64,000 nucleotides of DNA, from positions 1 to 64,000 of the forward strand of contig CAVPGK010000014.1 in NCBI GenBank assembly GCA_963703955.1, in the 5' to 3' direction. The stretch is from Nitrospirota bacterium. GTDB taxonomy: Bacteria; Nitrospirota; Nitrospiria; Nitrospirales; Nitrospiraceae. Of this stretch, positions 5,141-19,625 are shown one piece after another (within the stretch, counting starts at the first letter, position 1; every line of letters begins with the position of its first letter). A program made the position numbers and the translations under genes. A model generated the notes under the pieces. The model was given only the letters and a program-made list of their open reading frames with translations. It did no database searches and was not told the origin of the DNA.

Positions 5141-5452
5141 CGGATACACCTCCTTCTTGGCATTATGCCTAAGAGGTGTCCACAAAATCAGGGGAGGTTC
5201 AGTCCAGCAAATTCTACTTGGAGTTGGGATTAAGGATGCGGATCTCGAGAAAGCAATTGAACTACTTCTTTGGTACGGATTCCTCGGTACGGCAGGATCT
5301 ACATCAGATGAAGATCGGTATTCATATCAGGTTCGCTACAACTTGAGACACTTACTCCATCCTATCGAAAAGGGGAAGCTAAGTTCGTTATTCATCCAGG
5401 GTTTCGAACCGCTCTGGCGATCAGGAACTAGCAAAAAAGTGCACGCAGGCAG

Positions 5453-5477
5453 AAAAAAGGGGACAGGCTAATTTATT
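5453..5477. repeat. REP-like short imperfect palindrome
   Basis: AAAAAAGGGGACAGGCTAATTTATT, between the ATPase stop and xth tail 1. Related to 5814-5840 and to the reverse complement of 13331-13355. Confidence 0.6.
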
Positions 5478-5517
5478 GGAGACATCCTGCCCCGCGCGCT
5501 GGCGGTATGTCAGTGGC

Positions 5518-5809
5518 TCATTGCTGCTTCCGGGAGCGCGCCGCAATTCGCGAATCCGCCGAAGCCCAGCCGGCATCGAACGGATAGCCGGGGCTATCGA
5601 TGTCGATGACCAGCGGGGCATGATCCGAGGGTAATCGTTTTCCTTTCCGCGCTTCCCGATCGATCTCGGCCCAGACAACGCGGGGTCTCAATGGCGCCGT
5701 CACGAGCAGGTGATCGATGCGCATGCCGAAATTTTTATGAAAATTGCCGGCGCGGTAGTCCCACCACGTGTACCGCCCAGGTTCCGGGTGATGCAATCGG
5801 TACGCATCG
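5518..5809 (-). pseudogene. xth: 3' fragment of exodeoxyribonuclease III (tail 1)
   Basis: Highly similar to the last ~95 codons of 7661-8536, with a different C-terminus (RSRKQQ). Similarity ends abruptly at 5809. Confidence 0.9.
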
Positions 5810-5813
5810 CACC

Positions 5814-5896
5814 AAGAAAAGGGGGTAGGCTGAATAAAATGGAGAGAGGAGTAAATTAAGAGTCTGGAGTAAGAAAGGGGTCTGACCCATTAAGTT
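5814..5896. repeat. Pair of REP-like motifs at the xth tail-1 breakpoint
   Basis: AAGAAAAGGGGGTAGGCTGAATAAAAT (5814-5840) and AAGAAAGGGGTCTGACCCATTAAGTT (5871-5896). Confidence 0.55.
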
Positions 5897-6091
5897 CGCC
5901 CATGTTTTGAACCGCGGATCCGCAGGGGTACGTGGTCCAGTGGACGGGTTTTGAGCGGAGGGTCTTGCGCGGATCCGCATAAGACGCCAAGACTAAACCC
6001 AGGCCCGAGGCAAGTGTCGCGGACGTTCCATTACGGACACTCTATCCCATTTGGGGGTGTTAGGCGGATCGGCCTAAACATTGTTGACCTC

Positions 6092-6484
6092 ATGTCCGCA
6101 AACTCTCGTCGTCTGCTGCTGCGCGCCAACGCCGTGTTCCTCATCGTCGCCGCCGTCGGCGCCTGGGTGACTGCGGACTTTCCCGCGAGCTTCTCGGGAT
6201 CGGGACCGATCGGGCCCTTGATCGCACACCAGCCTGCGCTTGGCATCGGCTTCATCGAAGCCCACGGCCTCGCCATCATCCTGGGCGTACTCTTGTGGCG
6301 CGCCGCCAGCACGACCTCCTGGCACCTCACGGGCGCCGCGATCCATCTGCTGCTCGGCACTTGCAACGTCATCTTCTGGCAGCTCTTCATCGCCACGGAT
6401 ACCCTGCCGATGGGCTGGGTTACGACGGTGATGCAGTCGTTCGCCGCGTGGTCCGTCGCGCGTGGCGCCGCGGGCAACGTCTGA
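6092..6484 (+). CDS. Hypothetical membrane protein (about 4 TM helices)
   Basis: Hydrophobic ORF with GC-rich coding bias and an EAHGLA motif. ATG at 6092. Confidence 0.7.
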   Translation: MSANSRRLLLRANAVFLIVAAVGAWVTADFPASFSGSGPIGPLIAHQPALGIGFIEAHGLAIILGVLLWRAASTTSWHLTGAAIHLLLGTCNVIFWQLFIATDTLPMGWVTTVMQSFAAWSVARGAAGNV

Positions 6485-6546
6485 ACGCGCCTTTCCCGGC
6501 GGATAGTTTCAAAGGCGGCGCGCGCCGGTATGGAATCCGGAGAGGA

Positions 6547-6570
6547 AGAAAACAGGGACATTCTACTTTT
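6547..6570. repeat. REP-like motif (direct repeat of 8573-8596)
   Basis: AGAAAACAGGGACATTCTACTTTT; 21/24 identical to 8573-8596. Confidence 0.7.
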
Positions 6571-6623
6571 CTGGCAGGACTAACGGTGAAGCCGAGGTGT
6601 CGAGATCAAAGTCTCACGGTGGC

Positions 6624-6813
6624 TCATCGCTGCTGCCGCGAGCGTGACGCAATTCGCGAATCCGCCGAAGCGCAGCCGGCATCGAACGGATAGCCGGGGC
6701 TATCGATGTCGATGACCAGCGGGGCATGATCCGAGGGTAATCGTTTTCCCTTCCGTGCTTCCCGATCGATCTCGGCCCAGACAACGCGGTGTTTTAAAGG
6801 TGCCGTCATGAGC
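6624..6813 (-). pseudogene. xth: 3' fragment of exodeoxyribonuclease III (tail 2)
   Basis: Matches the last ~60 codons of xth (TAPLKHRVVWAEIDREARKG..PSDHAPL) and ends RSRQQR. Confidence 0.9.
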
Positions 6814-6884
6814 TTGCGTGCGCGCCTCACGGATCTGTCAGATGACAAAAACTGATCCTAGCCCATGATGCCCAGCTTATTGTG

Positions 6885-6913
6885 TTGACCATTTTTTTCG
6901 CGTTCGGTATTGT
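6885..6913 (+). promoter_or_regulatory. Sigma70-type promoter upstream of the DUF4126-like gene
   Basis: TTGACC-N17-TATTGT. Confidence 0.55.
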
Positions 6914-6984
6914 CTCGGCGATTGAGTTCCGCATCGCTCACGCCTGATCACAAATGACCGCAAATCGGAAAAGATAACTACATT

Positions 6985-7449
6985 ATGACTGTCTATTTAC
7001 TCGCGCTAATGATAGGCGCTGTCGCCGGGTTGCGCGCCATGACTGCGCCAGCGATGGTGAGTTGGGCGGCGCATCTCGGCTTGCTCGATCTGAGCGGAAC
7101 CTGGCTCGCCTTTTTCGGCAACATCTGGGCGCGCTGGATTCTGACGCTGTTCGCGCTTGTTGAGCTGGTCACGGATCAACTCCCATCTACACCTAGTCGC
7201 ACTGTGCCGGTCCAGTTCGGCGCCCGTATCATGACGGGCGCGCTTTCCAGCGCGGCAATCGGAGCTTCGGGCGGGGCGATGATTGGTGGGCTGATTGCAG
7301 GAATTATCGGCGCAATCATCGGCACTCTCGGCGGACGCGCCTTCCGCGCGAAGCTTGCGACGGCCTTTGGCAGCGACCGTCCCGCCGCTTTGATCGAAGA
7401 CGCAGTCGCCATCGGCGGCGCGTTGCTGATAGGAGTGGCGCTGCGCTGA
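6985..7449 (+). CDS. DUF4126-like membrane protein
   Basis: Motifs GAVAGLRAMTAPA, ELVTDQLPSTPSRT, ALIEDAVAI. Confidence 0.8.
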   Translation: MTVYLLALMIGAVAGLRAMTAPAMVSWAAHLGLLDLSGTWLAFFGNIWARWILTLFALVELVTDQLPSTPSRTVPVQFGARIMTGALSSAAIGASGGAMIGGLIAGIIGAIIGTLGGRAFRAKLATAFGSDRPAALIEDAVAIGGALLIGVALR

Positions 7450-7480
7450 AAAACTTCGACGCAATCATCATCGGCTCGAC
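7446..7480 (+). pseudogene. N-terminal stub of an FAD-dependent pyridine nucleotide-disulphide oxidoreductase
   Basis: (CTG)KNFDAIIIG overlaps the DUF4126 stop, resembling the first Rossmann strand. It is cut at the palindrome 7483-7508. Confidence 0.5.
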
Positions 7481-7482
7481 GG

Positions 7483-7508
7483 GGAAAACGGTGTCAGCAA
7501 CCGTTTCC
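7483..7508. repeat. REP-like palindrome at the junction of two gene stubs
   Basis: GGAAAACGGTGTCAGCAACCGTTTCC. Same type as 13282-13299, 17991-18009, 18034-18053 and 19605-19625. Confidence 0.7.
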
Positions 7509-7517
7509 ACGGTTCGG

Positions 7518-7640
7518 CATGCAACTATCCAGAAGTGGGGAAATAGCCTGGCGATTCGGGTACCCAAGCGCGTCGCCGAGGAGGCGGGACTTTGGGAAAA
7601 GGATACTGTTGAGATCGAGGTGCGAAATGGGCACGCTTGA
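7518..7640 (+). pseudogene. AbrB/MazE-family antitoxin fragment without a start codon
   Basis: My translation HATIQKWGNSLAIRVPKRVAEEAGLWEKDTVEIEVRNGHA* has the KWGNSLAxRIP signature. Not in the ORF track. Confidence 0.8.
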
Positions 7641-7660
7641 GGACCGAGGCAGGAAAAGAT

Positions 7661-8536
7661 TCAAGAACGCAGGCGCGCCGCAATTCGCGAGTCCGCCGAA
7701 GCCCAGCCGGCATCGAACGGAGTGCCCGGGCTATCGATGTCGATGACCAGCGGTGCGTGATCCGAGGGTAACGGTTTTCCCTTCCGCGCCTCGCGATCGA
7801 TCTCTGCCCAGACAACGCGGTGTTTTAAAGGTGCCGTCACGAGCAGGTGATCGATGCGCATGCCGAAATTTTTATGAAAATTGCCGGCGCGGTAGTCCCA
7901 CCACGTGTACCGCCCGGGTTCCGGGTGATGCAATCGGTACGCATCGACGAATCCCGCGCTCGAAAGCCGCCCGAAAGCCTGCCGCTCGCGCTCGGAAACG
8001 TGCGTACCGCCATAACAGGCGCGGGGGTCCCACACGTCGATATCGTCGGGCGCCACATTGAAATCACCGCCAATGACGGCCGGTGTATCCGGGGTGACGG
8101 CCTCATTGATCCAGCGAGCCAGCCTGTCGAACCACACGAGCTTCGCTTCATAAAACGGCGAACCCACGAGCCGGCCGTTCGGCGCGTACACACAGATGAT
8201 GCGCACGCCGCCACATTCGGCAGCGAGCATCCTCGCCTCAGCCAGCGGTTCATCCTCACCGATTTCAGACGTCCGCGCTCGCCGTAACGGCTCTCCAAAA
8301 TTCGTGATAACACCGCCAATGCCGCACCGACTCGCGATTGCGACGCCGTTCCATCGACCCTCACCATGGTGCACCAGCTCGTATCCGGCCTGCTGGAACG
8401 TTTTGACAGGCACATCTGCGTCCGCCAGCTTGGTTTCCTGCATCAGAAGCACGTGCGGCTTCGCCCGATCCAGCCACCACATGATCTTTTCCAGGCGAGC
8501 CTTCAGCGAGTTGACATTCCAGGTGGCAATCCGCAT
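7661..8536 (-). CDS. xth: Exodeoxyribonuclease III (AP endonuclease)
   Basis: Motifs MRIATWNVNS, MQETK, GDFNVAP, YTWWDYR, GMRIDH, SDHAP. Confidence 0.95.
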   Translation of the reverse strand: MRIATWNVNSLKARLEKIMWWLDRAKPHVLLMQETKLADADVPVKTFQQAGYELVHHGEGRWNGVAIASRCGIGGVITNFGEPLRRARTSEIGEDEPLAEARMLAAECGGVRIICVYAPNGRLVGSPFYEAKLVWFDRLARWINEAVTPDTPAVIGGDFNVAPDDIDVWDPRACYGGTHVSERERQAFGRLSSAGFVDAYRLHHPEPGRYTWWDYRAGNFHKNFGMRIDHLLVTAPLKHRVVWAEIDREARKGKPLPSDHAPLVIDIDSPGTPFDAGWASADSRIAARLRS

Positions 8537-8572
8537 GCGTAAAGATTATCCCATCTCGGCCCGGTCTGGGGG

Positions 8573-8596
8573 AGAAGACGGGGACGTTCTACTTTT
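8573..8596. repeat. REP-like motif just upstream of xth
   Basis: AGAAGACGGGGACGTTCTACTTTT; 21/24 identical to 6547-6570 and 18/24 to 9123-9146. Confidence 0.7.
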
Positions 8597-8669
8597 CTAA
8601 GCGTTGCATCCAAGCGGTGCCGGCTCCTGTCGGTCAATCCTGATGATTCTGCATTGCGATTCAGCAGTC

Positions 8670-9095
8670 TCACCACCACCAAACCAGCAGGAACGCCCCA
8701 AGGATCCAGTCGTACACGACGCAGAAGGGAATGTACCACTGCGGCGTGTCGGCGTACGGGCCATGGCGGTGATGAAACAGATCCCACAATCCATGGGCCA
8801 AATACCCTCCAGGTATCAAGAGCGGATTGAACTGGAGGCCTGTCAGGCCGACGGCGGCGAATGCCACTGCCCCGGCCAGTTCGATGAGGTTTGCGCTGGG
8901 CCGGCCGTCGCGCGCAGCGAAGCCGACATAGACTCCCCCGATCAAGGCCAACAGGAGCGCGCCCCATTGCTGGGCCAAAGATTTCGGGAGCGCGAGAAAC
9001 ACCGGGACCGTCGCCACGCCGAGCAGCAGCCCCGCCCAGTACGGATGCGCCGCCGGAAAATTGGCTTCAGGCTTAACGGTGCCCATCTCGAGCAT
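8670..9095 (-). CDS. DUF6010-like membrane protein
   Basis: Motifs GGVYVGFA, AHGLWDLFHH, PQWYIPFCVVYDW. AGGAG RBS before the ATG at 9095. Confidence 0.75.
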   Translation of the reverse strand: MLEMGTVKPEANFPAAHPYWAGLLLGVATVPVFLALPKSLAQQWGALLLALIGGVYVGFAARDGRPSANLIELAGAVAFAAVGLTGLQFNPLLIPGGYLAHGLWDLFHHRHGPYADTPQWYIPFCVVYDWILGAFLLVWWW

Positions 9096-9122
9096 GGTGC
9101 ATTCTCCTTTTCGCGACCAAAG

Positions 9123-9146
9123 AAAAGACAACGACGTGCTGCTTTT
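9123..9146. repeat. Degenerate REP-like motif upstream of the DUF6010-like gene
   Basis: AAAAGACAACGACGTGCTGCTTTT, same orientation as 8573-8596. Confidence 0.5.
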
Positions 9147-9325
9147 AGCTTAACAATTCAGGGCAGTCGAAACAGAGAAGTCGGGAGTCTTCATGGCGTA
9201 CGGGAGAGGATTGCCTCGGGCGACTCAGTGGCGGGTCTCGAGAGCTCCATACGCTCCAGGTCTGCGCGAATCCGCAGTGGTGAAGAATGCTCCGTGCCGG
9301 ATAAGGGCAAGACAAGATTCCTCGC

Positions 9326-10342
9326 TCAGGCGCCCCAGACACCGGGAATGCGGTAATCTGCTATCTGATTTTCTGAACCATAGTCAGCGTAATCGCCTTG
9401 CTGTCTCTTCCACCGGAAGTCCCCCCAGGTGATGGGCCGATATCTGGGCGGTGACTGCTCGTTCGTTAAGGCCGTGAGCGGCGCATAGATGGCCTCGTAG
9501 ACGGGGTTAAAGAAGAAGGGCAGACTATAACGCTCGCGATTCGTGCTCGCGCGCACACGATGGACCGGCGCTGGATAACGATCGTTGCTCCAGACCTGGA
9601 CGATGTCGCCGATATTGACCACCAAGGCGCCGATCACCGGCTCCACCAGCATCCATTGGCCGTCTAGGTTGATCTCGAGGGCACTCACTTCGTCATGGAG
9701 GAGCACGGTCAGTGCCCCAGCATCGGTGTGATGATGGATACCCAGATGGCCCGTTGCAGAGGCTGGCCGCTCTGGGCACAAGGGATCGTGGCAGGGGTAA
9801 TAGTTCAGCCGGAGGAAGCTCATGTGCCGACCAAAGAAATCGCGGGTGAGCGCGTCGGGTGGCACGCCGAGGCTCTCTGCGATCGCTTCGAGCAGCGTGA
9901 ACGCGACCCGCTCGCACGCGCGGAAGTACTCCTGCATGGTGGGTCTGAATCCAGGGCACAGACGGGCGTCGGGCCAACGGTTGAACCCATCCTGTGTCCA
10001 GTTGGCCGGGTCATCGTCGGGGAGTTCCGGCTGAGGGGTATGCCCGAAGTCGAACACCTCTTTCATGTCGCGGGTGTTCTTGGTCAGTTCGCGGTTGTAC
10101 CACCCTCGTGCGTTCTCCTTCGAACGTGACACGGCTTGCTTCGCGTCCAACGGGAGTGCAAAAAACCGCTTGGTCTCACACCAGATATGCTCGATCAAGT
10201 CCGACGGAACTCCGTGTCCGGTGATGTGGAAGAAGCCGTACTCGCAACAGGCTGCCCCAATCGCCGTTATCGTCTCGTCGTGCCGGGGCCTCCGGATGCC
10301 TAGGTGCTTTATGTCGATCACCGGAATTCGCTTGGCAGGCAT
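9326..10342 (-). CDS. 2-oxoglutarate/Fe(II)-dependent oxygenase, isopenicillin N synthase family
   Basis: Motifs GFFHITGHGV, LRLNYYP, HTD...H facial triad, RYS. Confidence 0.9.
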   Translation of the reverse strand: MPAKRIPVIDIKHLGIRRPRHDETITAIGAACCEYGFFHITGHGVPSDLIEHIWCETKRFFALPLDAKQAVSRSKENARGWYNRELTKNTRDMKEVFDFGHTPQPELPDDDPANWTQDGFNRWPDARLCPGFRPTMQEYFRACERVAFTLLEAIAESLGVPPDALTRDFFGRHMSFLRLNYYPCHDPLCPERPASATGHLGIHHHTDAGALTVLLHDEVSALEINLDGQWMLVEPVIGALVVNIGDIVQVWSNDRYPAPVHRVRASTNRERYSLPFFFNPVYEAIYAPLTALTNEQSPPRYRPITWGDFRWKRQQGDYADYGSENQIADYRIPGVWGA

Positions 10343-10646
10343 GGCGACTTCTCCCAACCAGAGCATCAATTGTCGTCAATCCAGCCACCCATCATACGCA
10401 AGGTCTGGAGAGCCGCTCTTATCGCCGAGAGCTTGCCGCGCGAAAAATGTACTCGGAGTCTATTAAGTTGTTGAGACAATGGCATCGACAACGGGTGACC
10501 GCTTCACGCTTATGCTCGCTGAAAAACTTCCGTCATGACCCCCTGACACCCTTCCAGCCCATTATGGATGCCATCAGTGATGGACTCTGCTGGTTACCGG
10601 AGTCCCACTGGGTTTGTGTCGCTCCGCTGCTGTGAAGAGGACGTGA

Positions 10647-10745
10647 ATGTATTGGGACGTCGTTGAAGTAAAGTCATTGGAAGGAATGAGCCTGTTTGTG
10701 CGGTTCGCCGACGGGGTGACTGGCGAAGTCCGCTTTGCGCCTGAG
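10647..10745 (+). pseudogene. Truncated DUF2442-family antitoxin; the upstream ...VAPLL* may be a toxin remnant
   Basis: MYWDVVEVKSLEGMSLFVRFADGVTGEVRF with a GAGG RBS, then runs into a hairpin. Confidence 0.65.
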
Positions 10746-10778
10746 AGGCGGGAGGCGTTACGGCCTCCCGACTCTCAG
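10742..10778. terminator. Stem-loop downstream of the 10804-11286 gene
   Basis: CTGAGAGGCGGGAGGC...GCCTCCCGACTCTCAG imperfect inverted repeat. Confidence 0.45.
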
Positions 10779-10803
10779 TTACGTTTGGCTGTCTTCGAAC
10801 AAG

Positions 10804-11286
10804 CTATGGCACTGCGAGTTTGTAGGTTCTACCGTCAAAGCAATCGCCATCGGCCTTTATATACACTGTCTTAACAACCGGCCCCCAAGGACTGCTCGGT
10901 TTACCTTGACCGCTGGTATCGTTCCGATACTCGATTCGGAATCGTGTGATCGGATTGTTAGCGGCGACGTGCTGAAGCGTGACGGTCTTCCACTCGTCCA
11001 TCTCACCCGATGACAATTTCTTGTTATCGAGCCCCTCGGTAAATTCCTTCCCGCCGGTTTCGTAGATTATCGAAACAACTTTGATGGCTTTGGGTTTCTC
11101 GTTCGTCAGCTCGAAGTCCACCTTGCAGGCCAAACGGTCCGCACTGGCATTCGCTGCGACGCCGAGGGATACGACAAGTCCGACTGCCGCCATGACCAGA
11201 CCGCGACGCATTCGGCCATGTCCTGGGTGATCGAGGTTGAAATTGGGTTCAACGCTTGGTGCACAGTGTTCTTGATACGTACTCAT
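10804..11286 (-). CDS. Hypothetical secreted protein
   Basis: AGGAG RBS, signal-like hydrophobic segment ending ASA, two Cys. Confidence 0.7.
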   Translation of the reverse strand: MSTYQEHCAPSVEPNFNLDHPGHGRMRRGLVMAAVGLVVSLGVAANASADRLACKVDFELTNEKPKAIKVVSIIYETGGKEFTEGLDNKKLSSGEMDEWKTVTLQHVAANNPITRFRIEYRNDTSGQGKPSSPWGPVVKTVYIKADGDCFDGRTYKLAVP

Positions 11287-11743
11287 GGCTTTCTCCTTCC
11301 TTGTGTGACTGTGAATGAATGACACCCGGGTCATACCCCGGCGTTATGGTGCGCTCTGGCGCCTCAAACACATTCGATCGCTCCGGATGCGTCGAACTCA
11401 GAGGCCATCACGGTGCGTCTCTCGGTTTAGTACCTATCAGACTCTAGCTAGATGACACTCTGCTGCTGAGCTGTTGCAACTTCCATGCTGGTGATGTGCA
11501 TGAGGGATGATCACGTTTGTTCCCGGCAGGATGCGAATGGACGTATTCCGCGCGCGGGGGATTCAAGTGTATCTTGCTCGATACCTCGCCAGAACGTTTA
11601 AGATACTCGCCTCAGAACCGAACGGGAGTCGTGTCCTGGCCGTCTGCGGCGATCTGCTGAAGCTTCCGTTGCGGGTGCGCCGCCATAGCGAAGTTGTTGC
11701 GGACAACATACCGGCCAACCACACGTCGAATTGATATCCCGAG

Positions 11744-11779
11744 TGCCGAACCCTCAGCGATGCTGAGGGTTCGGCATTT
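11744..11779 (+). terminator. Rho-independent terminator-like hairpin
   Basis: Perfect 15-bp stem TGCCGAACCCTCAGC-GAT-GCTGAGGGTTCGGCA followed by TTT. Confidence 0.65.
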
Positions 11780-11814
11780 GACTCTCTCCTGCAGACAACC
11801 TACCCTCCTTATTC

Positions 11815-12423
11815 ATGCGAATTGTTGTAATTGGCGCAACGGGAACGATCGGACGGGCGGTGGTGAGTCACTTGGCGTCCCGCCATGAGGTGGTCCAAGT
11901 CGCCCATAGCCAAGGCGACTATCGAATTGATCTCGAGTCGGTGGAGTCAATCCGAGCGCTCTATGAGCGGCTGGGATCTGTGGACGCGGTCGTGTCGGCT
12001 GCCGGTGTGGCGAGATTCAAGCCTCTGGAGAAATTGACCGACGAGGACTTTGCCGTCAGCCTCCACAACAAATTGATGGGGCAGGTCAATCTCGTGCGGT
12101 TGGGACTGCGAGCCGTGCGGGACAACGGGTCGTTCACATTGACGAGCGGCGTCTTGGCGCGTCAGCCGATGCCGGGGAGTGCGGCGATCAGTCTGGTGAA
12201 TGCCGGCATTGAGGGGTTCATGCGAGCCGCCAAGCTGGAATTGCCTCGCGGCATCCGGATCAACGCCGTCAGTCCTGGTTGGGTTCGCGAGACGCTGATC
12301 GCGCTGGGCATGGATCCGTCCGGCGGGATCCCGGCAGACCAGGTGGCCCGCGCCTATGTCGAGAGCGTGGAAAGTCGGAGAAATGGCGAGATCATCGAAA
12401 CGAGCACGTTTGCGACCCGGTAA
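11815..12423 (+). CDS. Short-chain dehydrogenase/reductase
   Basis: Motifs GATGTIG, KLMGQVNL, RINAVSPG. Confidence 0.9.
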   Translation: MRIVVIGATGTIGRAVVSHLASRHEVVQVAHSQGDYRIDLESVESIRALYERLGSVDAVVSAAGVARFKPLEKLTDEDFAVSLHNKLMGQVNLVRLGLRAVRDNGSFTLTSGVLARQPMPGSAAISLVNAGIEGFMRAAKLELPRGIRINAVSPGWVRETLIALGMDPSGGIPADQVARAYVESVESRRNGEIIETSTFATR

Positions 12424-12806: not shown

Positions 12807-13253
12807 GTGGGAACCAATACCATTCGGCTTCATCGAGTGTTTCGTGCAGCGCCAGAACGGATTTATCGGGCGTTCCTTGATGCGGACGCCATGACTAAAT
12901 GGTTGCCGCCAAATGGATTTACGGGCAAGGTGCATCACATGGATGTCAAAGTCGGTGGCACCTTCAAGATGTCGTTTACCAATTTCACCACAGGAAAGAG
13001 TCATTCGTTTGGCGGCGAGTACCTCGAACTCGTGCCGCATGAACGGATTCGCTACACGGACAACTTCGACGACCCGAACCTGCCGGGAGAGATTCGCGTG
13101 ACGATCACATTGAAGAAAGTTTCTTGCGGAACGGAACTGAACGTTGTGCAAGAAGGTGTGCCCGACATCATTCCTGCTGAAGCGTGCTATCTCGGCTGGC
13201 AAGAATCGCTGATCCTTCTCGGGAAACTCGTCGAAGCGGAGATCCCAAACTAA
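12807..13253 (+). CDS. SRPBCC/AHSA1-family protein
   Basis: LHRVFRAAPERIYRAFLD..KWLPPNGF and GWQESL. GTG start after GGAG. Confidence 0.88.
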   Translation: MGTNTIRLHRVFRAAPERIYRAFLDADAMTKWLPPNGFTGKVHHMDVKVGGTFKMSFTNFTTGKSHSFGGEYLELVPHERIRYTDNFDDPNLPGEIRVTITLKKVSCGTELNVVQEGVPDIIPAEACYLGWQESLILLGKLVEAEIPN

Positions 13254-13281
13254 TATCCTGGCAGAGACCGCGCGTGCGCTC

Positions 13282-13355
13282 GGTGCCAGGAACCGATTTC
13301 TGGATTTGGAGCACTCGCCAAGGATCGGGGAAAATGGGTAGCCTATCCTACTTTT
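13282..13355. repeat. Two REP-like motifs between the SRPBCC and DHFR-like genes
   Basis: GGTGCCAGGAACCGATTT (13282-13299) and AAAATGGGTAGCCTATCCTACTTTT (13331-13355). Confidence 0.6.
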
Positions 13356-13426
13356 GCGTTCAGTGGATTGAAAACTCACACCCTTCTTGTCCTGGTATGG
13401 CGACTTAAAAGCTGAAGGGTGATGGC

Positions 13427-13987
13427 ATGAAAGAAGGTCAGTCTGCGCCGGAGTGCTCGGTCTTTGTGGGCGTCAGCCTGGACGGATTCATCGCGCGGCC
13501 GAACGGCGATCTCGATTGGCTGATGGGGGAGGGTGGCGGCGACAGCGCGGAGTATGGGTACAACGAGTTCATTGCAGACATTGATGCGATCGTCATGGGG
13601 CGGAGGACGTTTGAGAAAGTATTGACTTTCGACAAGTGGTGTTACGGGAACAAGCGAGTGGTTGTCCTCAGCAATCAGCCCCTTGACCTGTCCGTTGCGC
13701 AGGCGCGCGGGGGCGTCGTTGAGCAGATGGCGGGGTCTCCCGCCGAAATTGCCTCCAAGCTTGCCGGCTCCGGCGCCCGACGTCTCTACGTGGATGGTGG
13801 AATCACGATTCAGCAATTCTTGCGTGCCGGCCTCATAGATCGTTTGATCATCAGTCGTCTTCCCGTGCTCATCGGCGAGGGCATCCCACTCTTCGGCTCC
13901 CTGCCGCGCGATATGCGCCTTCGACATATCGCGACGCGGACCTACCCGGGCGGGATGGTCCAAAGTGAGTACCATATCGTTGGTTAA
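13427..13987 (+). CDS. Dihydrofolate reductase-family / RibD C-terminal domain protein
   Basis: Motifs SLDGFIA, MGRRTF, YVDGG, PVLIGEGIPLF. Confidence 0.9.
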   Translation: MKEGQSAPECSVFVGVSLDGFIARPNGDLDWLMGEGGGDSAEYGYNEFIADIDAIVMGRRTFEKVLTFDKWCYGNKRVVVLSNQPLDLSVAQARGGVVEQMAGSPAEIASKLAGSGARRLYVDGGITIQQFLRAGLIDRLIISRLPVLIGEGIPLFGSLPRDMRLRHIATRTYPGGMVQSEYHIVG

Positions 13988-14022
13988 GCCGGCAGAACTT
14001 CCAGGCAAGCGTGTGTAGGGCT

Positions 14023-15408
14023 TCAGTTTTCTTTTTCGGATAGGTCGATTGCCGCATCGGCTTCCAGTCGAAAGCGGCCCCGGCCTCGCTGGACAAGTCT
14101 CACGTCTGGGCATTTCTGCTCAAGCCGTCGGCGAAGCAGAATCAGTCGGGTTTCGAGATTGTCCTTTACCTCGGGGAGTCCGAGCCAGGCGTCCATCCGC
14201 AACTCACGATTCGTGAATTCGACTCGCCCCTCATCTCGGTACTGCTTCAGCAAGCGCCAAAGAATCCTGGCCGGCACATTACGGATGAGATAGTCGCCGT
14301 CCACGAAGATGCAGTCGTCCTTTTGAAAAAAACTGAACCGGCGCGTTGAAAGCGAGCGGGGCGCAGCGGCCGGCGGTACGCTTCCAACCCGATCCATCGT
14401 TGCCTCGTCCATATCGCGGCTGAGTTGCTCGATCGCGGTCGCGAGGTGCGCGCCGATGGTGCTGAGCAGCGTGTTCTCGCGCGGGAGAAACGCAAGCGGA
14501 TCCTTACTCTCAACCGCCAGCACGCCAACCAAGCGTCCGCGGGTCACCAATGGCACCGCGATCTGGCTCGCCGCGTCGGGCAAGCCTGGGAGGGGGATTT
14601 CACGCGCGATGGCTTCCGTCTTTCCCATGGCTTCGGCCCGGTCCCGTACCGCACGCGCGTAACGCAAGCTGTGATCCATGGCGGAAAGATGAAGCGTCCG
14701 CCTGGCTCGCGCCACCATGCCAATCAAGCCTTCTCCCAAACCGACTTCCGATCCGACCCCGTTCTCCGCGTAGCCCTGGCTGGCGATGGTCAACAGCTTC
14801 GCGTTCCGCTCATCTACGAGCAGAATCATCGAATGATGAAATCCGAACTGCTCGTCAAGAAGTTGTAGCGAGGTTTGAAAGACCTCGTCTAGTAGCTGTG
14901 CCTTATTCAGTCGTTCGGCTATGAGCCGCAGCGATACCAGGCCCGAATCGAGAAAGAGCCGTGACGAACGTTCGGAGGATGGTGGAACAGGCAACCGCGT
15001 GAAGCCCTCCAAGCGTTCGACACCCAGTACCTCATACACGTCAGCGGCCTGAAGGCGAAAGATATCCGTCATTCCCGAATAGGACGCCACGGCTTGGAGC
15101 TGAAGCGACATCGATTCGAACAACGGGCCGGTCGATTCAGAATGATCAAACCGGAGACTAAAGCGATAGGCGTGCAACGTTCGTGGGTCGAGGACAATCG
15201 CACAGGCGAACGGGTTCTCGCGGACATTGCGATGAGTCTTGTTGAAGAATTGAAACGAGATGGCCAGGTGGGTCGGATCCACATAATACACCTGGCTGAT
15301 AAAGGTGATGTTCGGTGTGCCGTCGGCTGCGCAGGTACTCAACGCCGCGGGGACGATGCCCTGAAAGCACGCCCAGAGATCCTCAAGCTGATGCGATATC
15401 TGTTTCAT
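14023..15408 (-). CDS. Putative one-component regulator: PNPOx-like FMN-binding domain + GAF + C-terminal winged helix
   Basis: N-terminal STCAADGTPN..QFFNKT, GAF-like GEGLIG..AVPL..VGVL, C-terminal NLETRLILLRRRL..GRGRF. Confidence 0.8.
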   Translation of the reverse strand: MKQISHQLEDLWACFQGIVPAALSTCAADGTPNITFISQVYYVDPTHLAISFQFFNKTHRNVRENPFACAIVLDPRTLHAYRFSLRFDHSESTGPLFESMSLQLQAVASYSGMTDIFRLQAADVYEVLGVERLEGFTRLPVPPSSERSSRLFLDSGLVSLRLIAERLNKAQLLDEVFQTSLQLLDEQFGFHHSMILLVDERNAKLLTIASQGYAENGVGSEVGLGEGLIGMVARARRTLHLSAMDHSLRYARAVRDRAEAMGKTEAIAREIPLPGLPDAASQIAVPLVTRGRLVGVLAVESKDPLAFLPRENTLLSTIGAHLATAIEQLSRDMDEATMDRVGSVPPAAAPRSLSTRRFSFFQKDDCIFVDGDYLIRNVPARILWRLLKQYRDEGRVEFTNRELRMDAWLGLPEVKDNLETRLILLRRRLEQKCPDVRLVQRGRGRFRLEADAAIDLSEKEN

Positions 15409-15866
15409 GGCTCTATCTTCTTACCTGCGCCCGGTCCCGGCGTCTGATCGAACACCTCCGTGACGGCAATCTCCACGGCGACTGTCGGTTCGACGATCCA
15501 GGCCTCACTGAGGGCGGACGGCACGCCGATGGCCCGCAGTTCGGCCACGAATTCGCGGTGCCACCGTCGGCTCGCATCCCGATCAGCGGGGGTCGCGGAC
15601 TTGATGCGTAAGACCTGACCTTTTAGCTGGCAGGTCGTGTGGTCGGTCGGCCTGGTGCAGGTGACGGCAATCTTGCCGTTTCCGCGTAAGTTGTCGATGG
15701 TCTTGCCCGCGATTGTCTCGGAGAGAAAGATCGTCACGGTGTCAGGACCCGTCGCGACGTGAATGCCCCATGCGCGCGTGCATTCCGGTATCAGCGAGGC
15801 ATCGCGAGTGCCGACCATGACCGACACGCCAGTCTGCAGGAGATGGACGATCGAGTCGGGGATCAT
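15405..15866 (-). CDS. Pyridoxamine 5'-phosphate oxidase-like FMN-binding protein
   Basis: VGTRDASLIPECTRAWG...FDQTPGPGAG. Overlaps the next gene by 4 nt. Confidence 0.8.
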   Translation of the reverse strand: MIPDSIVHLLQTGVSVMVGTRDASLIPECTRAWGIHVATGPDTVTIFLSETIAGKTIDNLRGNGKIAVTCTRPTDHTTCQLKGQVLRIKSATPADRDASRRWHREFVAELRAIGVPSALSEAWIVEPTVAVEIAVTEVFDQTPGPGAGKKIEP

Positions 15867-15889
15867 GAATGTAGGTGATCTATTCTCTA

Positions 15890-15928
15890 TTAGGAAAGAT
15901 TTAGGGGAACGTTAGCATAGTTTTAGGA
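15890..15928. promoter_or_regulatory. Candidate operator: four TTAG direct repeats at 11-bp period
   Basis: TTAGGA 15890, TTAGGG 15901, TTAGCA 15912, TTAGGA 15923, in the divergent intergenic region. Confidence 0.6.
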
Positions 15929-16019
15929 ACCGTGTCGCCGAACTCCGTGTTACTTTCACCCTCATAACGAAGACACGAGCGCGTTCCAGTCGAGCGCGTC
16001 AAACAATATGGAGGGTCCC

Positions 16020-16871
16020 ATGCGATACGCGTTATTCGGTTCTCTGGTGCTTGCTTCGATTGCGGTGGGGGCAGCGCCGGCCTGGGCCGGCAACCGTCAG
16101 AGTGCAGCGGAGCTGCAGGGCGGCGATGCCGCGGTGGTGTTTATGGCCCATGACTACGGCTTCACCGGCCCCGACCGTATTCCGGCCGGTCTCACGACCG
16201 TACGGATCATCAATGAGGGTCAAGACCTTCACCACATCCAGTTCCTGAAGCTGCTGCAAGGCAAATCGGCGGCCGATTTCCGGGCGGCCATTGCGGCCGA
16301 TCCAAGCCGCCTGCCGGATTGGGTGCAATATGCCGGTGGACCGAATGCCCACCCTCCGGGCAGCCTGGCATCCGCCACGGTCAACCTGACCGAAGGAGAC
16401 TATGTCATCATGTGCTGGATCCCGGACAAAAATGGTGTGCCTCATGTCGCGCTGGGGATGCAGAAGGCGCTTGCCGTTCGAGGAGGAAAGCCGACGAAGG
16501 TCTCAGCGCCGAAAGCTTCTATAACCATCAAGCAAATTGATTATCAGTTTATTCTTTCAAAGCGAATCGAACCGGGTCTTCACACGATTGAGGTCATGAA
16601 CCATGGCACCCAACCCCATGAGCTCGTAGTCGTGAAGCTGGTCCCGGGCGCCACGGTCAAAGATGTGATCGCCTCGTTCGAGCCAGGCGCCTCGGGTCCG
16701 CCTCAGGGCGAATTGGTGGGAGGCATTACAGGAATCGAGAAAGGAGAGCGCGTCTCCTTTACCGGCGAATTTGAGCCGGGCAGGTACGGGCTCATCTGCT
16801 TCGTCCCTGATGCGGTCACCGGGCGACCTCATTTCCTTCACGGCATGACGACGGAATTCACCGTGGAGTGA
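16020..16871 (+). CDS. Secreted tandem cupredoxin-like protein
   Basis: Signal peptide. Two repeats, each with His...C-x2-P-x5/6-H-x3-GM (CWIPDKNGVPHVALGM, CFVPDAVTGRPHFLHGM). Confidence 0.75.
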   Translation: MRYALFGSLVLASIAVGAAPAWAGNRQSAAELQGGDAAVVFMAHDYGFTGPDRIPAGLTTVRIINEGQDLHHIQFLKLLQGKSAADFRAAIAADPSRLPDWVQYAGGPNAHPPGSLASATVNLTEGDYVIMCWIPDKNGVPHVALGMQKALAVRGGKPTKVSAPKASITIKQIDYQFILSKRIEPGLHTIEVMNHGTQPHELVVVKLVPGATVKDVIASFEPGASGPPQGELVGGITGIEKGERVSFTGEFEPGRYGLICFVPDAVTGRPHFLHGMTTEFTVE

Positions 16872-16984
16872 TGTACGAGGAGAGCGGATCGCCAGCCGAT
16901 AAGGCACGGTCAGGGCTCAATCCTGGCCGGCTTTTCTTTGGTTCGGTCGTCCGGCGTTTTGAGGCAAAGAAAAATAGGAACATT

Positions 16985-17022
16985 ACCGGCTCGCGGTGTG
17001 CGCAAATGTCACGCTCCTTATT
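16985..17022 (-). repeat. Inverted copy of an internal unit of the 38789-39035 element
   Basis: Reverse complement AATAAGGAGCGTGACATTTGCGCACACCGCGAGCCGGT versus 38879-38917 AATAAGGAGCCTCACGTTTGCGCACGCCCGCGAGCCGGT. Confidence 0.7.
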
Positions 17023-17185
17023 TGTGGCGTCGCGCACCCGAACCTCCGCAATTCGCGAGCAGGCACTGGGGCCAAGATGGGGGCCGGGAGTTCATTTCCA
17101 GACGGTCACGGGATGAGGGAAGAAGGTTTCGCCTGGTGAGACGCCGGTACACGCAAGCGAGGGTTGGACCTCTGCCGGGGTATAA

Positions 17186-17231
17186 AAAGAGCCCGTTGGA
17201 TCTTCGGATCCAGCGGGCTCTTTCTTTTTTT
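17186..17231 (+). terminator. Strong, probably bidirectional intrinsic terminator
   Basis: AAAGAGCCCGTTGGATC-TTCG-GATCCAGCGGGCTCTTT followed by a T tract. Confidence 0.8.
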
Positions 17232-17249
17232 ACAGCCAAACAGGGGGAT

Positions 17250-17344
17250 CAGGCGGCCTTGGTAGTCCCCTGTGCTCGCAGAGGGCGCACGATCAGAATG
17301 TGCTCCCTCGATGCGCGCAGTGAGGGGATCACCCAGGCCACCTG
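17250..17344. repeat. Long hairpin repeat with a conserved 51-nt core (copy A)
   Basis: Core 17271-17321 is 44/51 identical to 60834-60884. It has its own outer inverted repeat. Confidence 0.85.
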
Positions 17345-17544
17345 TTGTGATCTCACCTGCAGCGTTGGGGGAGGGAAGGTGGCCGGTCGCCAACAGCTGG
17401 CGCATGGCGACCGGCTCAAGCGAAGCTTGGTATGGACCTCTGCCGGGTTATTAAAGTGGGCAGCGAAACCTACTTTCCTGAAGATTACTGGAGGGAGTGA
17501 TCTCCGCCGCGATTGCTCAAAGCGGCGGTACACACCAAGCGAGA

Positions 17545-17913
17545 TTATATTTCACTGGAGGATGAGCCGACGAACCCCTTCACGGGGATCAGGCGCTTTG
17601 CGATGGGATCGACGCCGAGTAGCAGGCTCTCGAGGGCGACAGCCCCAAGCAGGGCGGGTCCCCCTGGTGCGATCAGGCACCTCGTGCTAACCTCGTCGCC
17701 GTTGAGCGTAAGTCGGACCTCCGCCAACGGCCAGGTCTCCTCGCGGCCGCCGGCGGCTTGGATCGGGCAGGTTCGGGTGGGGCGGAGCTCCAGCCGATCC
17801 GCAAGGGTCTGCGGCACCACAAGGAATGTGGCCCCCGTGTCCACGAGAAGTTCGACTGCCTCGGTGCGCCCGGTTGGTCCGGCTAGGCGAGCTTGGATGT
17901 TGAAGAGGCCCAT
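17545..17913 (-). CDS. Clan AA (retroviral-like) aspartyl protease
   Basis: Motifs LVDTGAT and ALLGAVALE. Confidence 0.85.
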   Translation of the reverse strand: MGLFNIQARLAGPTGRTEAVELLVDTGATFLVVPQTLADRLELRPTRTCPIQAAGGREETWPLAEVRLTLNGDEVSTRCLIAPGGPALLGAVALESLLLGVDPIAKRLIPVKGFVGSSSSEI

Positions 17914-17990
17914 GGTTCGTTCGTCGGTTAGCATAGCACATCCAGGGTTTGCGAGGGGAGCACCACACAGAGATCGCTGGCGGGGGGAGA

Positions 17991-18053
17991 AAAAGGTGCA
18001 GGAACCTTTCTGTGGAATCACGTGCTTGTAATGAAAATGGTTCCTGACACCTT
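17991..18053. repeat. Inverted pair of REP-like motifs (REPIN-like)
   Basis: AAAAGGTGCAGGAACCTTT ... AAAATGGTTCCTGACACCTT. Confidence 0.7.
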
Positions 18054-18109
18054 AAGAGGAACTTTGACGGCGCAATTGACCATTGCCACGAGCGGGGTGT
18101 GGGGGGTGG

Positions 18110-19588
18110 TTACTGAGGCTTAGAAACGCTCTGCGGTAGCCCGCTGTTGGCTTTTTCCCTTTCAGCCCGCTGTTCCTCGACCAGTTTATACGCGATGTAG
18201 TACTTGTAGATGTTGGCCACGTACGTGACCGTCTCTTCCCCGATCCGTTTCGCGGCGATGATCTCGACGTTGTTGAACCAGACGTTCGGATCGAGCCCGC
18301 GTTTCTCCGCTTCCTTCCGAAGTTTCTGAACTCGGCCGGGCCCGGCATTGTACGCGGCGAACGAGAACAGGATTTTATTCCGCGCGTCCATGGGCTGATT
18401 TTCGAAGAATTGGTCTCGGAGCAAACGGATATATTTGATGCCGGCATGGATGTTCGGTTCAAGCTGGCCAATGTCGCCGGTCTTCATCTCGTTGCCGGTG
18501 GCGGGCATCAGTTGCATCACCCCGATCGCTCCAACATCGCTTCGGGCATTCTGATCGAGCAGGGATTCCTGGTAGCCCTGGGCGATCATCAAGAGATAGT
18601 CCATGTCATACTGGGCGCCGTATTTGCGAAAGAACTCGACCGTATTCTTGAATTTCTTGATCTCGCCGGACGACGTGGCCTGTTTTACGACCCGCGGATT
18701 ACCATCGCCGCCGTATTTTTTGATGAGCGCCTTGCCGAGGTCGGATTTCTGGCCATGTTTTTTGGCGAACCCGGCAATCTCCGCTTTCAACTTCGGGCTG
18801 TCTTTACGGATCATCCAGGCGAGGTCCCCTCCCTTGTTGACGACGACATCTTCGTGGGGTTTAAGCTTCTTGAAGACCTTCGCCCAGAGGAGGGCTTGGT
18901 AGCGATCTACCACGATGATTTCGACGAGCCCGGCATTGACCATTTCCAGCAGATCGTCATCCTGCAGATCCTCCGGTGCGGCCTTGAGCACCACCGGCGG
19001 TTTCTGCTCTTGCGCGAACTGCTCGTTGAGATGTTCCAGGTGAGTCCAGTAGCTCGATGACTTGCGGACGAACACCTCCTTGCCTGAGAGGTCATCGACG
19101 GAGGCCAGTGGGGGTGATGCAGGTCCCGTCACGGCGATTTCTTTGACGCCTCGGAAAAAGGGCTCGCCGAAGTCGACTTTTTCGAGACGTTCCGGTGTGA
19201 CGGTCAAGATGCCGGCCGCAATATCGCCGCGCCCTTCCAGCAGTCCAGGGATCAGCTGGTCGCGCGGTGTCGGAATAATGACCACATGGATAAGAATGTG
19301 CTTGCCTTTTGTCTTGTAACGATTGTTGATTTCTTCCTGGAAAGCCTTGAGGAGTTCATATTCGGCGCCGGTCTGCCTGGCGCCGCTGAGCCAGTATGAC
19401 GTGCGAGACGGAGCCACGAGCGCGCGAATGACGCGACGCTCGATCATCCCGTCGAGGTCACCCGTCCAAGGCTTGAGGATAATGGACGAAGTCAGTTCAT
19501 GTTCTTGCGGTAGTTGTTGATCGTAGGCGAGAGAAGAAATCGACAACGAGATGAAGACGCATACGACGCGCAGTGAAATGAGCCTCAT
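18110..19588 (-). CDS. MltF-like lytic transglycosylase with solute-binding domain
   Basis: SBP family 3 N-terminus. SLT motifs YQES, GAIGVMQL, AAYNAGPG, ETVTYV. Confidence 0.9.
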   Translation of the reverse strand: MRLISLRVVCVFISLSISSLAYDQQLPQEHELTSSIILKPWTGDLDGMIERRVIRALVAPSRTSYWLSGARQTGAEYELLKAFQEEINNRYKTKGKHILIHVVIIPTPRDQLIPGLLEGRGDIAAGILTVTPERLEKVDFGEPFFRGVKEIAVTGPASPPLASVDDLSGKEVFVRKSSSYWTHLEHLNEQFAQEQKPPVVLKAAPEDLQDDDLLEMVNAGLVEIIVVDRYQALLWAKVFKKLKPHEDVVVNKGGDLAWMIRKDSPKLKAEIAGFAKKHGQKSDLGKALIKKYGGDGNPRVVKQATSSGEIKKFKNTVEFFRKYGAQYDMDYLLMIAQGYQESLLDQNARSDVGAIGVMQLMPATGNEMKTGDIGQLEPNIHAGIKYIRLLRDQFFENQPMDARNKILFSFAAYNAGPGRVQKLRKEAEKRGLDPNVWFNNVEIIAAKRIGEETVTYVANIYKYYIAYKLVEEQRAEREKANSGLPQSVSKPQ

Positions 19589-19604
19589 GGAGTATGTCCG
19601 CTTC

Positions 19605-19625
19605 AAGATGGGTCCCTGGCACCCT
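19605..19625. repeat. REP-like motif upstream of the mltF-like gene
   Basis: AAGATGGGTCCCTGGCACCCT, same orientation as 18034-18053. Confidence 0.5.

What the first reader, a model, noticed from the sequence alone, without database searches (positions are those of the whole stretch)
5431..19625. Candidate REP-delimited gene-cassette array: short palindromes mark cargo boundaries and truncation points, with no integrase present
Seen in the sequence: a loose family of 20-25 nt motifs (A-run, then GG[G/T]G[A/T]C-like core, often a T-run) recurs in intergenic DNA. Clear or fairly clear copies are at 5453, 5814, 5871, 6547, 7483, 8573, 9123, 13282, 13331, 17991, 18034 and 19605. Weaker copies are at 6847, 10443 and 10541. 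They lie about 20 nt after the ATPase stop, about 5 nt from the xth tail-1 breakpoint, exactly between the oxidoreductase stub and the MazE stub, on both sides of the DUF6010-like gene and on both sides of mltF (same orientation in both cases). They are nearly absent from the 23-64 kb housekeeping part. The clearest exception (60925-60945) again precedes a small orphan ORF. Established knowledge: HUH/Y1 REP-associated tyrosine transposases (RAYT/TnpREP) process short ssDNA palindromes, and integrons build arrays from folded sites. Inference: this island may be built by a trans-acting enzyme that uses these motifs to capture, shuffle and truncate genes, an integron-like process without IntI or attC. 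The RAYT link is my recollection of motif shape and is not demonstrated.
Basis: partly seen in the sequence, partly recalled or inferred. Interest (0 to 1): 0.85.

Follow-up and report, generated by a model that had tools for sequence, protein, structure and literature searches.

The report
Transposase ends stitch accessory gene island
The short repeats between the genes of this patchwork island are leftover end-sequences of a little-studied family of single-strand-DNA transposases, and in related genomes broken or duplicated DNA is repeatedly joined about 11 bases outside these ends, so the enzyme likely splices and scrambles such islands, although integron-like capture of whole genes is not shown.

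Summary
The motifs are real. They are terminal inverted repeats (TIRs) of TIRYT/subclass-2.1 Y1 (HUH) transposase genes, not REP hairpins or attC sites. A model trained only on TIRs flanking TIRYT genes of other genomes finds 8 intergenic sites here (0.13 expected) and none in 23-64 kb.

This assembly (82% complete) holds only two TIRYT wrecks and no IntI.

Main result: the junctions are polarised. Tandem duplications start 10-13 nt outside the TIR and end at variable points inside or beyond it (27 of 369 TIRs; held-out 10 of 159, 9 at that offset). Gene truncations join at the same offset: 12 of 140 breaks, then 8 of 48 in a held-out set. A third set was weak (6 of 132). This fits one-ended Y1 strand transfer to arbitrary 3' ends.

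Not shown: excisable cassettes, circles, clean empty sites, or whole genes moving with a TIR. Most truncations carry no TIR.

The scan reported TIRYT-end arrays before in other genomes. I found no fixed-offset junction rule in its notes or in the papers searched.

The parts
5454..5476 (+). TIR, core GGGGACAGGCTA type; outer end 22 nt after the ATPase stop (5429-5431); inner side faces the xth tail-1 3' end
   Evidence: 29.2 bits; TIR plus inner flank homologous in L148 and L185
5518..5809 (-). xth 3' tail-1 (gene positions 591-end), 93% identical to the full copy; break 11 nt outside the next TIR
5816..5838 (+). decayed TIR whose outer end abuts the tail-1 break; left arm of a convergent pair
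   Evidence: 8.7 bits; aligns to 17-bit TIRs in L139 and L228
5872..5894 (-). TIR, GGGGTCAGACCCC type (self-complementary core); right arm of the pair
   Evidence: 14.1 bits; a contig of run X4 has a joint at 5890 with a 30-nt short side, weak
6092..6484 (+). 130-aa membrane-protein ORF, cargo
   Evidence: no Pfam or NCBIfam hit
6549..6571 (+). TIR, GGGGACATTCTAC type; inner side faces the tail-2 3' end
   Evidence: 27.4 bits; same type flanks TIRYT genes in L052, L055, L061, L065
6624..6813 (-). xth 3' tail-2 (693-end), 91% identical to the full copy; no TIR at its break
6985..7449 (+). DUF4126 gene, probably a foreign import
   Evidence: Pfam; not found with this query in 300 other genomes of the phylum; 80 metagenome loci
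7446..7475 (+). 10-codon stub of the FAD oxidoreductase that follows DUF4126 in source operons; cut 14 nt outside the TIR
   Evidence: homology to L258, L260, L262 ends at 7475
7485..7507 (+). TIR, GGTGTCAGGAACC type
   Evidence: 23.6 bits; a contig of run X2 rejoins at 7489
7519..7642 (+). 5' stub of a small gene; AbrB/MazE-like label is recalled, no family hit; truncated without a TIR
7661..8536 (-). full accessory exodeoxyribonuclease III (xth), patchy across the family
   Evidence: TIGR00633; DNA match in 79 of 370 other family genomes
8575..8597 (+). TIR, GGGGACATTCTAC type, outer end facing the xth promoter
   Evidence: 21.6 bits; xth-upstream homology in relatives ends at 8551-8579
8670..9131 (-). 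DUF6010 gene; truncated at TIR outer ends in L152 and L157
   Evidence: 11.6 bits; L147 homology ends at 9165, 11 nt before the core
13255..13363 (.). 110-bp insert between AHSA1 and RibD genes holding a decayed convergent TIR pair (13277-13299 +, 13333-13355 -)
   Evidence: absent from L139 and L142; right joint 13 nt outside the TIR core
17989..18056 (.). convergent TIR dimer, GGTGTCAGGAACC type (17989-18011 +, 18034-18056 -)
   Evidence: 16.3 and 22.1 bits; folds, z -5.2; L146 homology resumes 12-20 nt outside
18110..19606 (-). mltF-like gene
   Evidence: Pfam SLT + SBP_bac_3; homologs in L146, L148
19606..19628 (-). possible decayed TIR upstream of mltF, weak
   Evidence: 3.3 bits; L148 homology resumes 5-16 nt outside
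19805..19827 (+).
   Evidence: 26.2 bits

Best explanation
The motifs are the ~21-nt terminal repeats of TIRYT-type Y1 (HUH) transposase elements, left in the island as decayed single copies and convergent pairs; the transposase likely nicks the repeat-bearing strand about 11 nt 5' of the repeat core and likely joins that fixed end to a free 3' end at a variable position. Shown: identity of the motif, same-strand polarity, the fixed outer offset, variable far ends, and local tandem duplications of a TIR plus 6 to about 280 nt of inner DNA. Inferred: the nick, a 5'-phosphotyrosine on the TIR side (by analogy with E. coli TnpA-REP), and nascent or broken strands as acceptors. One such joint gives a stutter or a [TIR + partial gene][TIR + full gene] duplication. 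Two staggered joints would insert a TIR-ended piece with a deletion or a long duplication of the target. Repeated over time, by several TIRYT subtypes in ancestors or donors, this would truncate, duplicate and interleave accessory genes. Host recombination probably makes many of the other breaks, including many xth tails. In this genome the enzyme appears lost or unassembled.
For: TIRYT genes in relatives and other phyla are flanked by inverted copies of the same motif types; 113 TIRs trained the model. The proteins keep HUH and Tyr, all 13 hit PF01797, and the profile hits TnpA-REP 4ER8 at E 2e-9. Stutters: 27 of 369 distinct TIRs, offset control 2; a start at -11 fits 18 of 27 and -10 to -13 fits 24; no shared junction letters are evident. 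Held-out: 10 of 159, 9 starting at -10 to -13, mirror control 0, offset control 1. Long versions: L400 (294 bp, 99.7%) and L410 (204 bp, 98.5%) are [TIR + partial TIRYT][TIR + full TIRYT]; L365 has a TIRtron with a 113-nt flank duplication joined at -12 and -11. Intragenic breaks with an outward-facing TIR: 12 of 140 against nulls of 1.3-1.4, 0 of 2000 permutations; 8 of 48 held-out with 0 inward, nulls 0.75-1.9, 6 of the 9 outward joints listed at 11-12 nt. In the window, offsets are 11, 14, 11 and 13 nt. Polarity: 75:20 same-strand against 64 expected, p 0.0004.
Against: One held-out set replicated weakly: 6 of 132 breaks at >=8 bits (p 0.013 and 0.053), 3 of 132 at >=11 bits (not significant), non-xth 1 of 78. 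Only 4 of 46 new xth 5' breaks had a TIR. Four of the 12 discovery hits prompted the hypothesis. The long duplications contain TIRYT DNA, not cargo genes. Only 1 of 105 TIRtron-like pairs has a flank duplication. No stutter is evident at the window's own 13 sites (by eye). One duplication (C13, NnrS-like label recalled) ends on the inner side of the TIR. Related genomes are not independent, and many TIR-xth junctions look like one ancestral joint. No biochemistry on this subclass was found in my searches.
Confidence: 0.62

Rival explanations
1. Passive scars. Two-ended TIRtrons and TIR dimers inserted like ordinary IS or MITE elements into a tolerant island and decayed. The gene stubs and xth tails come from RecA-dependent and illegitimate recombination during repeated gene transfer, independent of the TIRs.
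For: Most breaks have no TIR. Whole TIRtrons do copy as units: two 100%-identical copies in L407, four copies or stumps in L401, one unit at different array positions in L167 and L170. xth fragments lie downstream on the same strand as the full gene in 21 of 22 rows (my count) and 12 of 13, as single-crossover stacking predicts. The resident full copy is the best match for only 6 of 27 fragments.
Against: It does not explain tandem copies that start at a fixed -11 and end anywhere, each carrying its own local flank. It does not explain the strong same-strand bias across different TIR subtypes. Tails are followed by an inward-facing TIR more often than full genes are (17 of 53 against 4 of 42, p 0.012, not independent).
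Confidence: 0.22
2. A dedicated integron-like system. Same-strand TIRs delimit cassettes that TIRYT excises as single-stranded circles and reinserts beside other TIRs, building selected gene arrays.
For: Young arrays in relatives alternate intact small genes with same-strand TIRs (L167 9:2, L169 9:2, L168 4:1). The same chromosomal locus holds different arrays in two species (L167, L170). Inner flanks keep their TIR in homologs more often than outer flanks (51 of 76 against 30 of 63). mltF lies between two same-strand sites, one of them weak.
Against: No circle junction or clean empty site in four runs of contigs or in the fetched loci. No whole cargo gene was seen at a new place with its TIR. 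The best apparent case (three copies in G001) proved to be an IS3 element inserted in TIRs. Far ends are variable and often cut genes. DUF4126 source loci lack TIRs.
Confidence: 0.12
3. The motifs are operators, terminators or chance A/T-flanked strings with no role in recombination.
For: The TIR upstream of TIRYT genes sits next to a -35-like TTGAC, so it may also be an autoregulatory site. Five of the 15 listed sites in the island (9123, 19605 and the three weak ones) are background-level or weak.
Against: Enrichment P about 1e-12. No TIR coincides with a terminator-like site and there is no Rfam match. The fixed-offset junctions need a recombination cause.
Confidence: 0.04

Closest known systems
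TIRYT / TIRtron (Di Nocera et al. 2013, PMC3733652, passages read) = probably TnpA-Y1 subclass 2.1 (Quentin et al. 2018, PMC6006769, passages read)
   Same: Y1 gene flanked by terminal inverted repeats with consensus GGGGWSAS; dispersed single, dimeric and grouped TIR copies; no REP-like hairpin; a Bac_DnaA_C helix-turn-helix in the long type (2 of 13).
   Different: The passages read describe no mechanism, no fixed outer junction and no link to gene truncation or accessory islands. Here at least five TIR subtypes are mixed in one island that has no transposase.
REP/BIME/REPIN with TnpA-REP (RAYT) (Ton-Hoang et al. 2012, PMC3333891, passages read)
   Same: HUH/Y1 family; non-autonomous repeats and dimers; the paper's amplification model yields tandem copies between two cuts; a 5' phosphotyrosine intermediate is stated there.
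   Different: REPs have a GTAG guide and a hairpin and are cut at C^T on either side over more than 400 nt. These TIRs have neither, and joints sit at a fixed distance on one side with no evident consensus.
Integrons (IntI, attI, attC; from my own knowledge)
   Same: Polarised arrays of small accessory genes separated by short repeats.
   Different: No IntI, no attC hairpin, no precise cassette boundaries; genes are often cut.
IS91/ISCR and Helitron one-ended rolling-circle capture (from my own knowledge)
   Same: One fixed end, one variable end, adjacent DNA copied, HUH enzyme.
   Different: Those use Y2-type or Rep-Hel enzymes with distinct ori and ter ends. Here a small Y1 enzyme has two similar inverted ends, and each behaves as a fixed end.
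Subclass 2.1 TnpA-REP beside prochlorosin genes (Laurenceau et al., bioRxiv 10.1101/2020.03.09.984088, whole main text read)
   Same: Same subclass, proposed to diversify neighbouring genes.
   Different: [quoted passage not shown]

Membership tests
TIRYT/TIRtron TIRs | The motif flanks a Y1 transposase gene as an inverted pair | tested here: met
   all window motif types flank Y1 genes in other genomes
TIRYT/TIRtron TIRs | Core fits GGGGWSAS | tested here: met
   exact in the GGGGACAG and GGGGTCAG types; one mismatch in the GGGGTCGG, GGTGTCAG and GGGGACAT types
TIRYT/TIRtron TIRs | Associated protein has HUH and a catalytic Tyr | tested here: met
   H60 and Y122 invariant, H62 in at least 90%; 4ER8 match; PF01797 in 13 of 13
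TIRYT/TIRtron TIRs | C-terminal HTH / phylogenetic placement in subclass 2.1 | tested here: inconclusive
   Bac_DnaA_C in 2 of 13; no tree against the published subclasses was built
TIRYT/TIRtron TIRs | Intact cognate transposase in the same genome | tested here: not met
   no PF01797 match; two wrecks on C10 and C16; assembly 82% complete; short type present in 121 of 300 family genomes
REP/REPIN | GT[AG]G guide at the foot of a hairpin | tested here: not met
   1 of 6 monomers folds better than shuffles; no guide in the aligned TIRs
Integron | IntI integrase | tested here: not met
   best 62 bits against a cut-off of 265
Integron | attC sites (R/L boxes, folded bottom strand) | tested here: inconclusive
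   the motifs are too short and mostly do not fold; no dedicated attC model was run
Integron | Precise excisable cassettes, circles or empty sites | tested here: inconclusive
   none seen in contigs of 4 runs, which cover the island only in pieces, or in the fetched loci
IS200/IS605-type ssDNA transposition | Orientation tied to the replication fork | tested here: inconclusive
   my hand tally for relatives' loci with clear skew: 32 TIRs on the G-rich strand, 39 on the C-rich strand
IS200/IS605-type ssDNA transposition | ssDNA cleavage and strand transfer in vitro | not testable with these tools
   needs purified enzyme

The most novel reading that the evidence does not exclude
TIRYT is a widespread one-ended HUH splicer: it measures about 11 nt outside its repeat and ligates that end to any available 3' end, so it duplicates, truncates and brings in flanking genes and builds polarised accessory-gene arrays across many phyla. 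This would be a route to gene-array assembly distinct from integrons and from IS91/ISCR capture.
Probability: 0.35. Interest if true: 0.85.

Novelty: new variant of a known kind. Interest (0 to 1): 0.62.

Why it matters
Subclass 2.1 / TIRYT proteins are common (121 of 300 genomes of this family), and my searches found no demonstrated activity for them. The fixed -11 joint with a variable far end gives a precise prediction for the cut site, strand and polarity that can be tested at once. If cargo is carried along, it would explain many hypervariable islands of small genes and gene stubs that have no integrase. This window alone is a decayed example, and the scan has already flagged similar arrays in other genomes.

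Tried and rejected
- Genome-wide k-mer counting did not pick up the family, because it is rare and diverged.
- A single PWM was at background below 16 bits. It was replaced by a subtype mixture.
- Three [TIR + cargo] copies in G001 first looked like capture. They are an IS3 element inserted 10 nt into TIRs, so I withdrew them as evidence.
- The idea that all xth tails are foreign alleles was rejected as a general rule. Both window tails match the resident copy best, and 6 of 27 fragments do overall.
- A replication-strand rule was not supported.
- Site 9123 was rejected as native DUF6010 upstream DNA.
- Genes beside TIRs were not significantly shorter than other genes (median 142 against 213 aa, p 0.07).
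- No TIRYT-derived DNA was found inside the island.
- No sequencing run held half of the stretch's words. The contigs laid gave only two weak joints at TIRs.
- Viral contigs gave only 6 distant TIRYT loci.
- Rows dropped before counts: duplicate loci (L010, L023, L032, L191, L192, L199, L239, L340, L344, L352, L356, L361, L372, L388); breaks at locus edges, spanned by other homology or inside long ORFs; and 32 breaks in TIRYT DNA.
- Paper searches found no description of TIR-polarised junctions or arrays. They cover open-access PMC and bioRxiv only. Figures and supplements of Di Nocera 2013 and Quentin 2018, which list TIR sequences, were not seen and may bear on novelty.


Full report
SETTING. 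The window is contig C14 of an 82%-complete genome. The family is probably Nitrospiraceae; this is an inference from named Nitrospira records being the closest hits to a family member's TIRYT and from an earlier scan note. Bases 1-5.4 kb hold an Sll1717-type ATPase broken by two IS256-family copies, an IS3-family element and a frameshift. Bases 5.4-20 kb are small accessory genes and stubs. Beyond about 23 kb the genes are mostly housekeeping.

WHAT THE MOTIF IS. The assembly has no PF01797 match and no IntI. In 15 of 30 relatives Y1 genes are present. The 215-320-aa type is flanked by inverted copies of exactly the window's motif types, and this holds across phyla in 70 of 80 further loci examined for flanks, most of which gave a matching pair. 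Quentin et al. (PMC6006769, passages) and Di Nocera et al. (PMC3733652, passages) describe such genes as TIRYT, subclass 2.1, with consensus GGGGWSAS and dispersed single, dimeric or grouped TIRs. The proteins keep HUH and Tyr and match TnpA-REP 4ER8. A model trained only on foreign TIRs gives 22 hits >=18 bits in this genome against 1 in a shuffle. Eight intergenic hits >=14 bits lie in the island against 0.13 expected, and none in 23-64 kb. Seven of the 12 clear sites pass, four are decayed with comparative support, 9123 and the weak sites fail, and 9177 and 19810 were missed. Monomers mostly do not fold; some convergent dimers do. The genome holds two TIRYT wrecks, neither in the island.

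ANATOMY. On the + strand the island reads as TIR, cargo, break, TIR. In order: TIR 5459, xth tail-1, break; pair 5821/5889, orphan gene; TIR 6554, xth tail-2, break without a TIR; DUF4126 and oxidoreductase stub, break; TIR 7490, small-gene stub, full xth; TIR 8580, DUF6010; TIR 9177, 2OG-Fe oxygenase. Then comes a block that is largely syntenic in relatives, with a decayed pair at 13.3 kb, a pair at 18.0 kb, mltF and TIR 19810. All single TIRs above 8 bits point the same way. Where relatives define a joint it lies on the A-run (outer) side, 11, 14, 11 and 13 nt from the first G, with looser cases of 12-20 and 5-16 nt.

POLARISED BREAKS. Across 81 loci (1.06 Mb), 12 of 140 intragenic truncation points have an outward-facing TIR centred 10-23 nt away, against 1.3-1.4 in two nulls (0 of 2000 permutations); 2 face inward. 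Four of the 12 were the xth cases that prompted the test. A held-out set chosen by xth fragments and the small-gene stub was weak: 6 of 132 at >=8 bits (p 0.013 and 0.053), 3 of 132 at >=11 bits, and 1 of 78 for non-xth genes. Only 4 of 46 new xth 5' breaks had a TIR. A second held-out set around TIRYT genes, with TIRYT DNA masked, gave 8 of 48 outward and 0 inward at >=14 bits (nulls 0.75 and 1.9), with 6 of 9 outward joints at 11-12 nt. So TIRs make a minority of breaks, but those breaks follow a rule.

FIXED OFFSET. Of 369 distinct TIRs, 27 carry a tandem duplication that starts outside the TIR and ends 4-33 nt into or past it. A start at -11 fits 18 of them and -10 to -13 fits 24; no junction consensus is evident. 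The offset control gave 2. The mirror control gave 8, of which 7 are whole-TIR duplications seen from the partner copy. Held out: 10 of 159, 9 at -10 to -13, mirror 0, control 1. The two ends of one element duplicate their own different flanks (L037), so the copying is local. Longer same-strand TIR repeats share at most 11 outer nt in 24 of 24 pairs. L400 and L410 are 294- and 204-bp tandem duplications of the form [TIR + partial TIRYT][TIR + full TIRYT]. L399 has a 117-nt TIR piece joined 11 nt outside another TIR. L365 has a TIRtron with a 113-nt target duplication joined at -12 and -11, the only such case among 105 pairs. Local direct repeats bounded by TIRs in both copies end on the outer side 22 times and on the inner side once, many being TIRYT DNA itself.

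MECHANISM (inferred). Read 5' to 3' on the TIR strand, every such joint is variable DNA followed by a fixed TIR end. That is what Y1 chemistry would give if the nick leaves the enzyme linked to the TIR-side 5' end and any 3'-OH resolves it. Ton-Hoang et al. (PMC3333891, passages) state a 5' phosphotyrosine intermediate and propose tandem amplification between two cuts for TnpA-REP. Same-strand joining also explains why different TIR subtypes point the same way (75:20, p 0.0004) with no clear replication-strand bias.

THE XTH TAILS. The accessory xth has a DNA match in 79 of 370 other family genomes, many as 3' fragments. Fragments lie downstream of the full gene on the same strand in 21 of 22 rows (my count) and 12 of 13. 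They are followed by an inward-facing TIR in 17 of 53 cases against 4 of 42 for full genes, but many of these share one ancestral joint. The resident copy is the best match in 6 of 27, including both window tails. TIR-driven duplication and host recombination with incoming alleles probably both contribute.

WHAT IS NOT SHOWN. No circle, clean empty site or whole gene relocated with its TIR was found. The apparent best case was an IS3 element that sits inside TIRs. DUF4126 source loci have 2 TIR hits in 259 kb. Contigs from four runs cover the island in pieces and give two weak joints at TIRs. Young arrays in relatives (L167-L170) do alternate intact genes with same-strand TIRs and differ between species at one locus, so capture remains open.

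LITERATURE AND PRIOR NOTES. Nine paper searches found TIRYT named only in the 2013 and 2018 papers. Bertels 2017 (PMC5581495, passages) and the REPIN preprint (10.1101/2021.07.10.451892, passages) give no mechanism for group 1 in what I saw. Laurenceau et al. (whole main text) propose, then soften, a diversifying role. Other papers were seen only as search listings. Eight earlier scan notes report TIRYT ends in other genomes, six of them as arrays at gene-block joints; I had identified the family before reading them. A search of the notes for a fixed-offset rule returned nothing.

VERDICT. A real feature of a known but barely studied family, with a reproducible and apparently undescribed junction rule. 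The integron-like reading is possible but unproven. Interest 0.62.

Noticed in passing
L169:6755-8024, L170:9905-11174 and L170:7667-7849 (G001): An IS3-family element whose ends sit 10 nt into TIRs on both sides in both full copies; it appears to target TIRYT TIRs, as some IS elements target REPs.
   Followed up: partly
G000:C13:80000-111000 (L158-L160): Second TIR cluster in this genome (9 hits >=15 bits, 7 on one strand) among small accessory and toxin-antitoxin-like genes, with a 99.6%-identical local duplication that ends just inside a TIR.
   Followed up: partly
G000:C17:45800-49700 (L163): Repeated 5' heads of a type I restriction methylase-like gene (label recalled) separated by small toxin-antitoxin-like pairs, after two same-strand TIRs; mirrors the xth-tail stacking.
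   Followed up: no
window 1-5431: Sll1717-type P-loop ATPase gene split by two identical IS256-family copies, an IS3-family element and a frameshift near its 3' end; weak similarity to anti-phage DS41 (E 4.5e-6, far below cut-off).
   Followed up: partly
window 17271-17327 and 60834-60890; genome-wide: A different, more abundant intergenic repeat family dominates the k-mer counts; two copies lie in the window. No cognate enzyme was sought.
   Followed up: no
window 13427-19686 against L146 and L148: The RibD gene and its fragments occur on either side of the GAF-cupredoxin-mltF block in relatives, a permuted order that suggests tandem duplication or circular intermediates.
   Followed up: partly
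L398, L407: RHS-like repeat genes (label recalled) with duplicated segments interleaved with TIRtron copies, joined 5-12 nt outside TIRs in L398; possible TIRYT-assisted reshuffling of RHS pieces.
   Followed up: no
window 60962-61136: 57-codon orphan ORF with a good ribosome-binding site, after a 7.6-bit TIR-like string that is not above background.
   Followed up: partly
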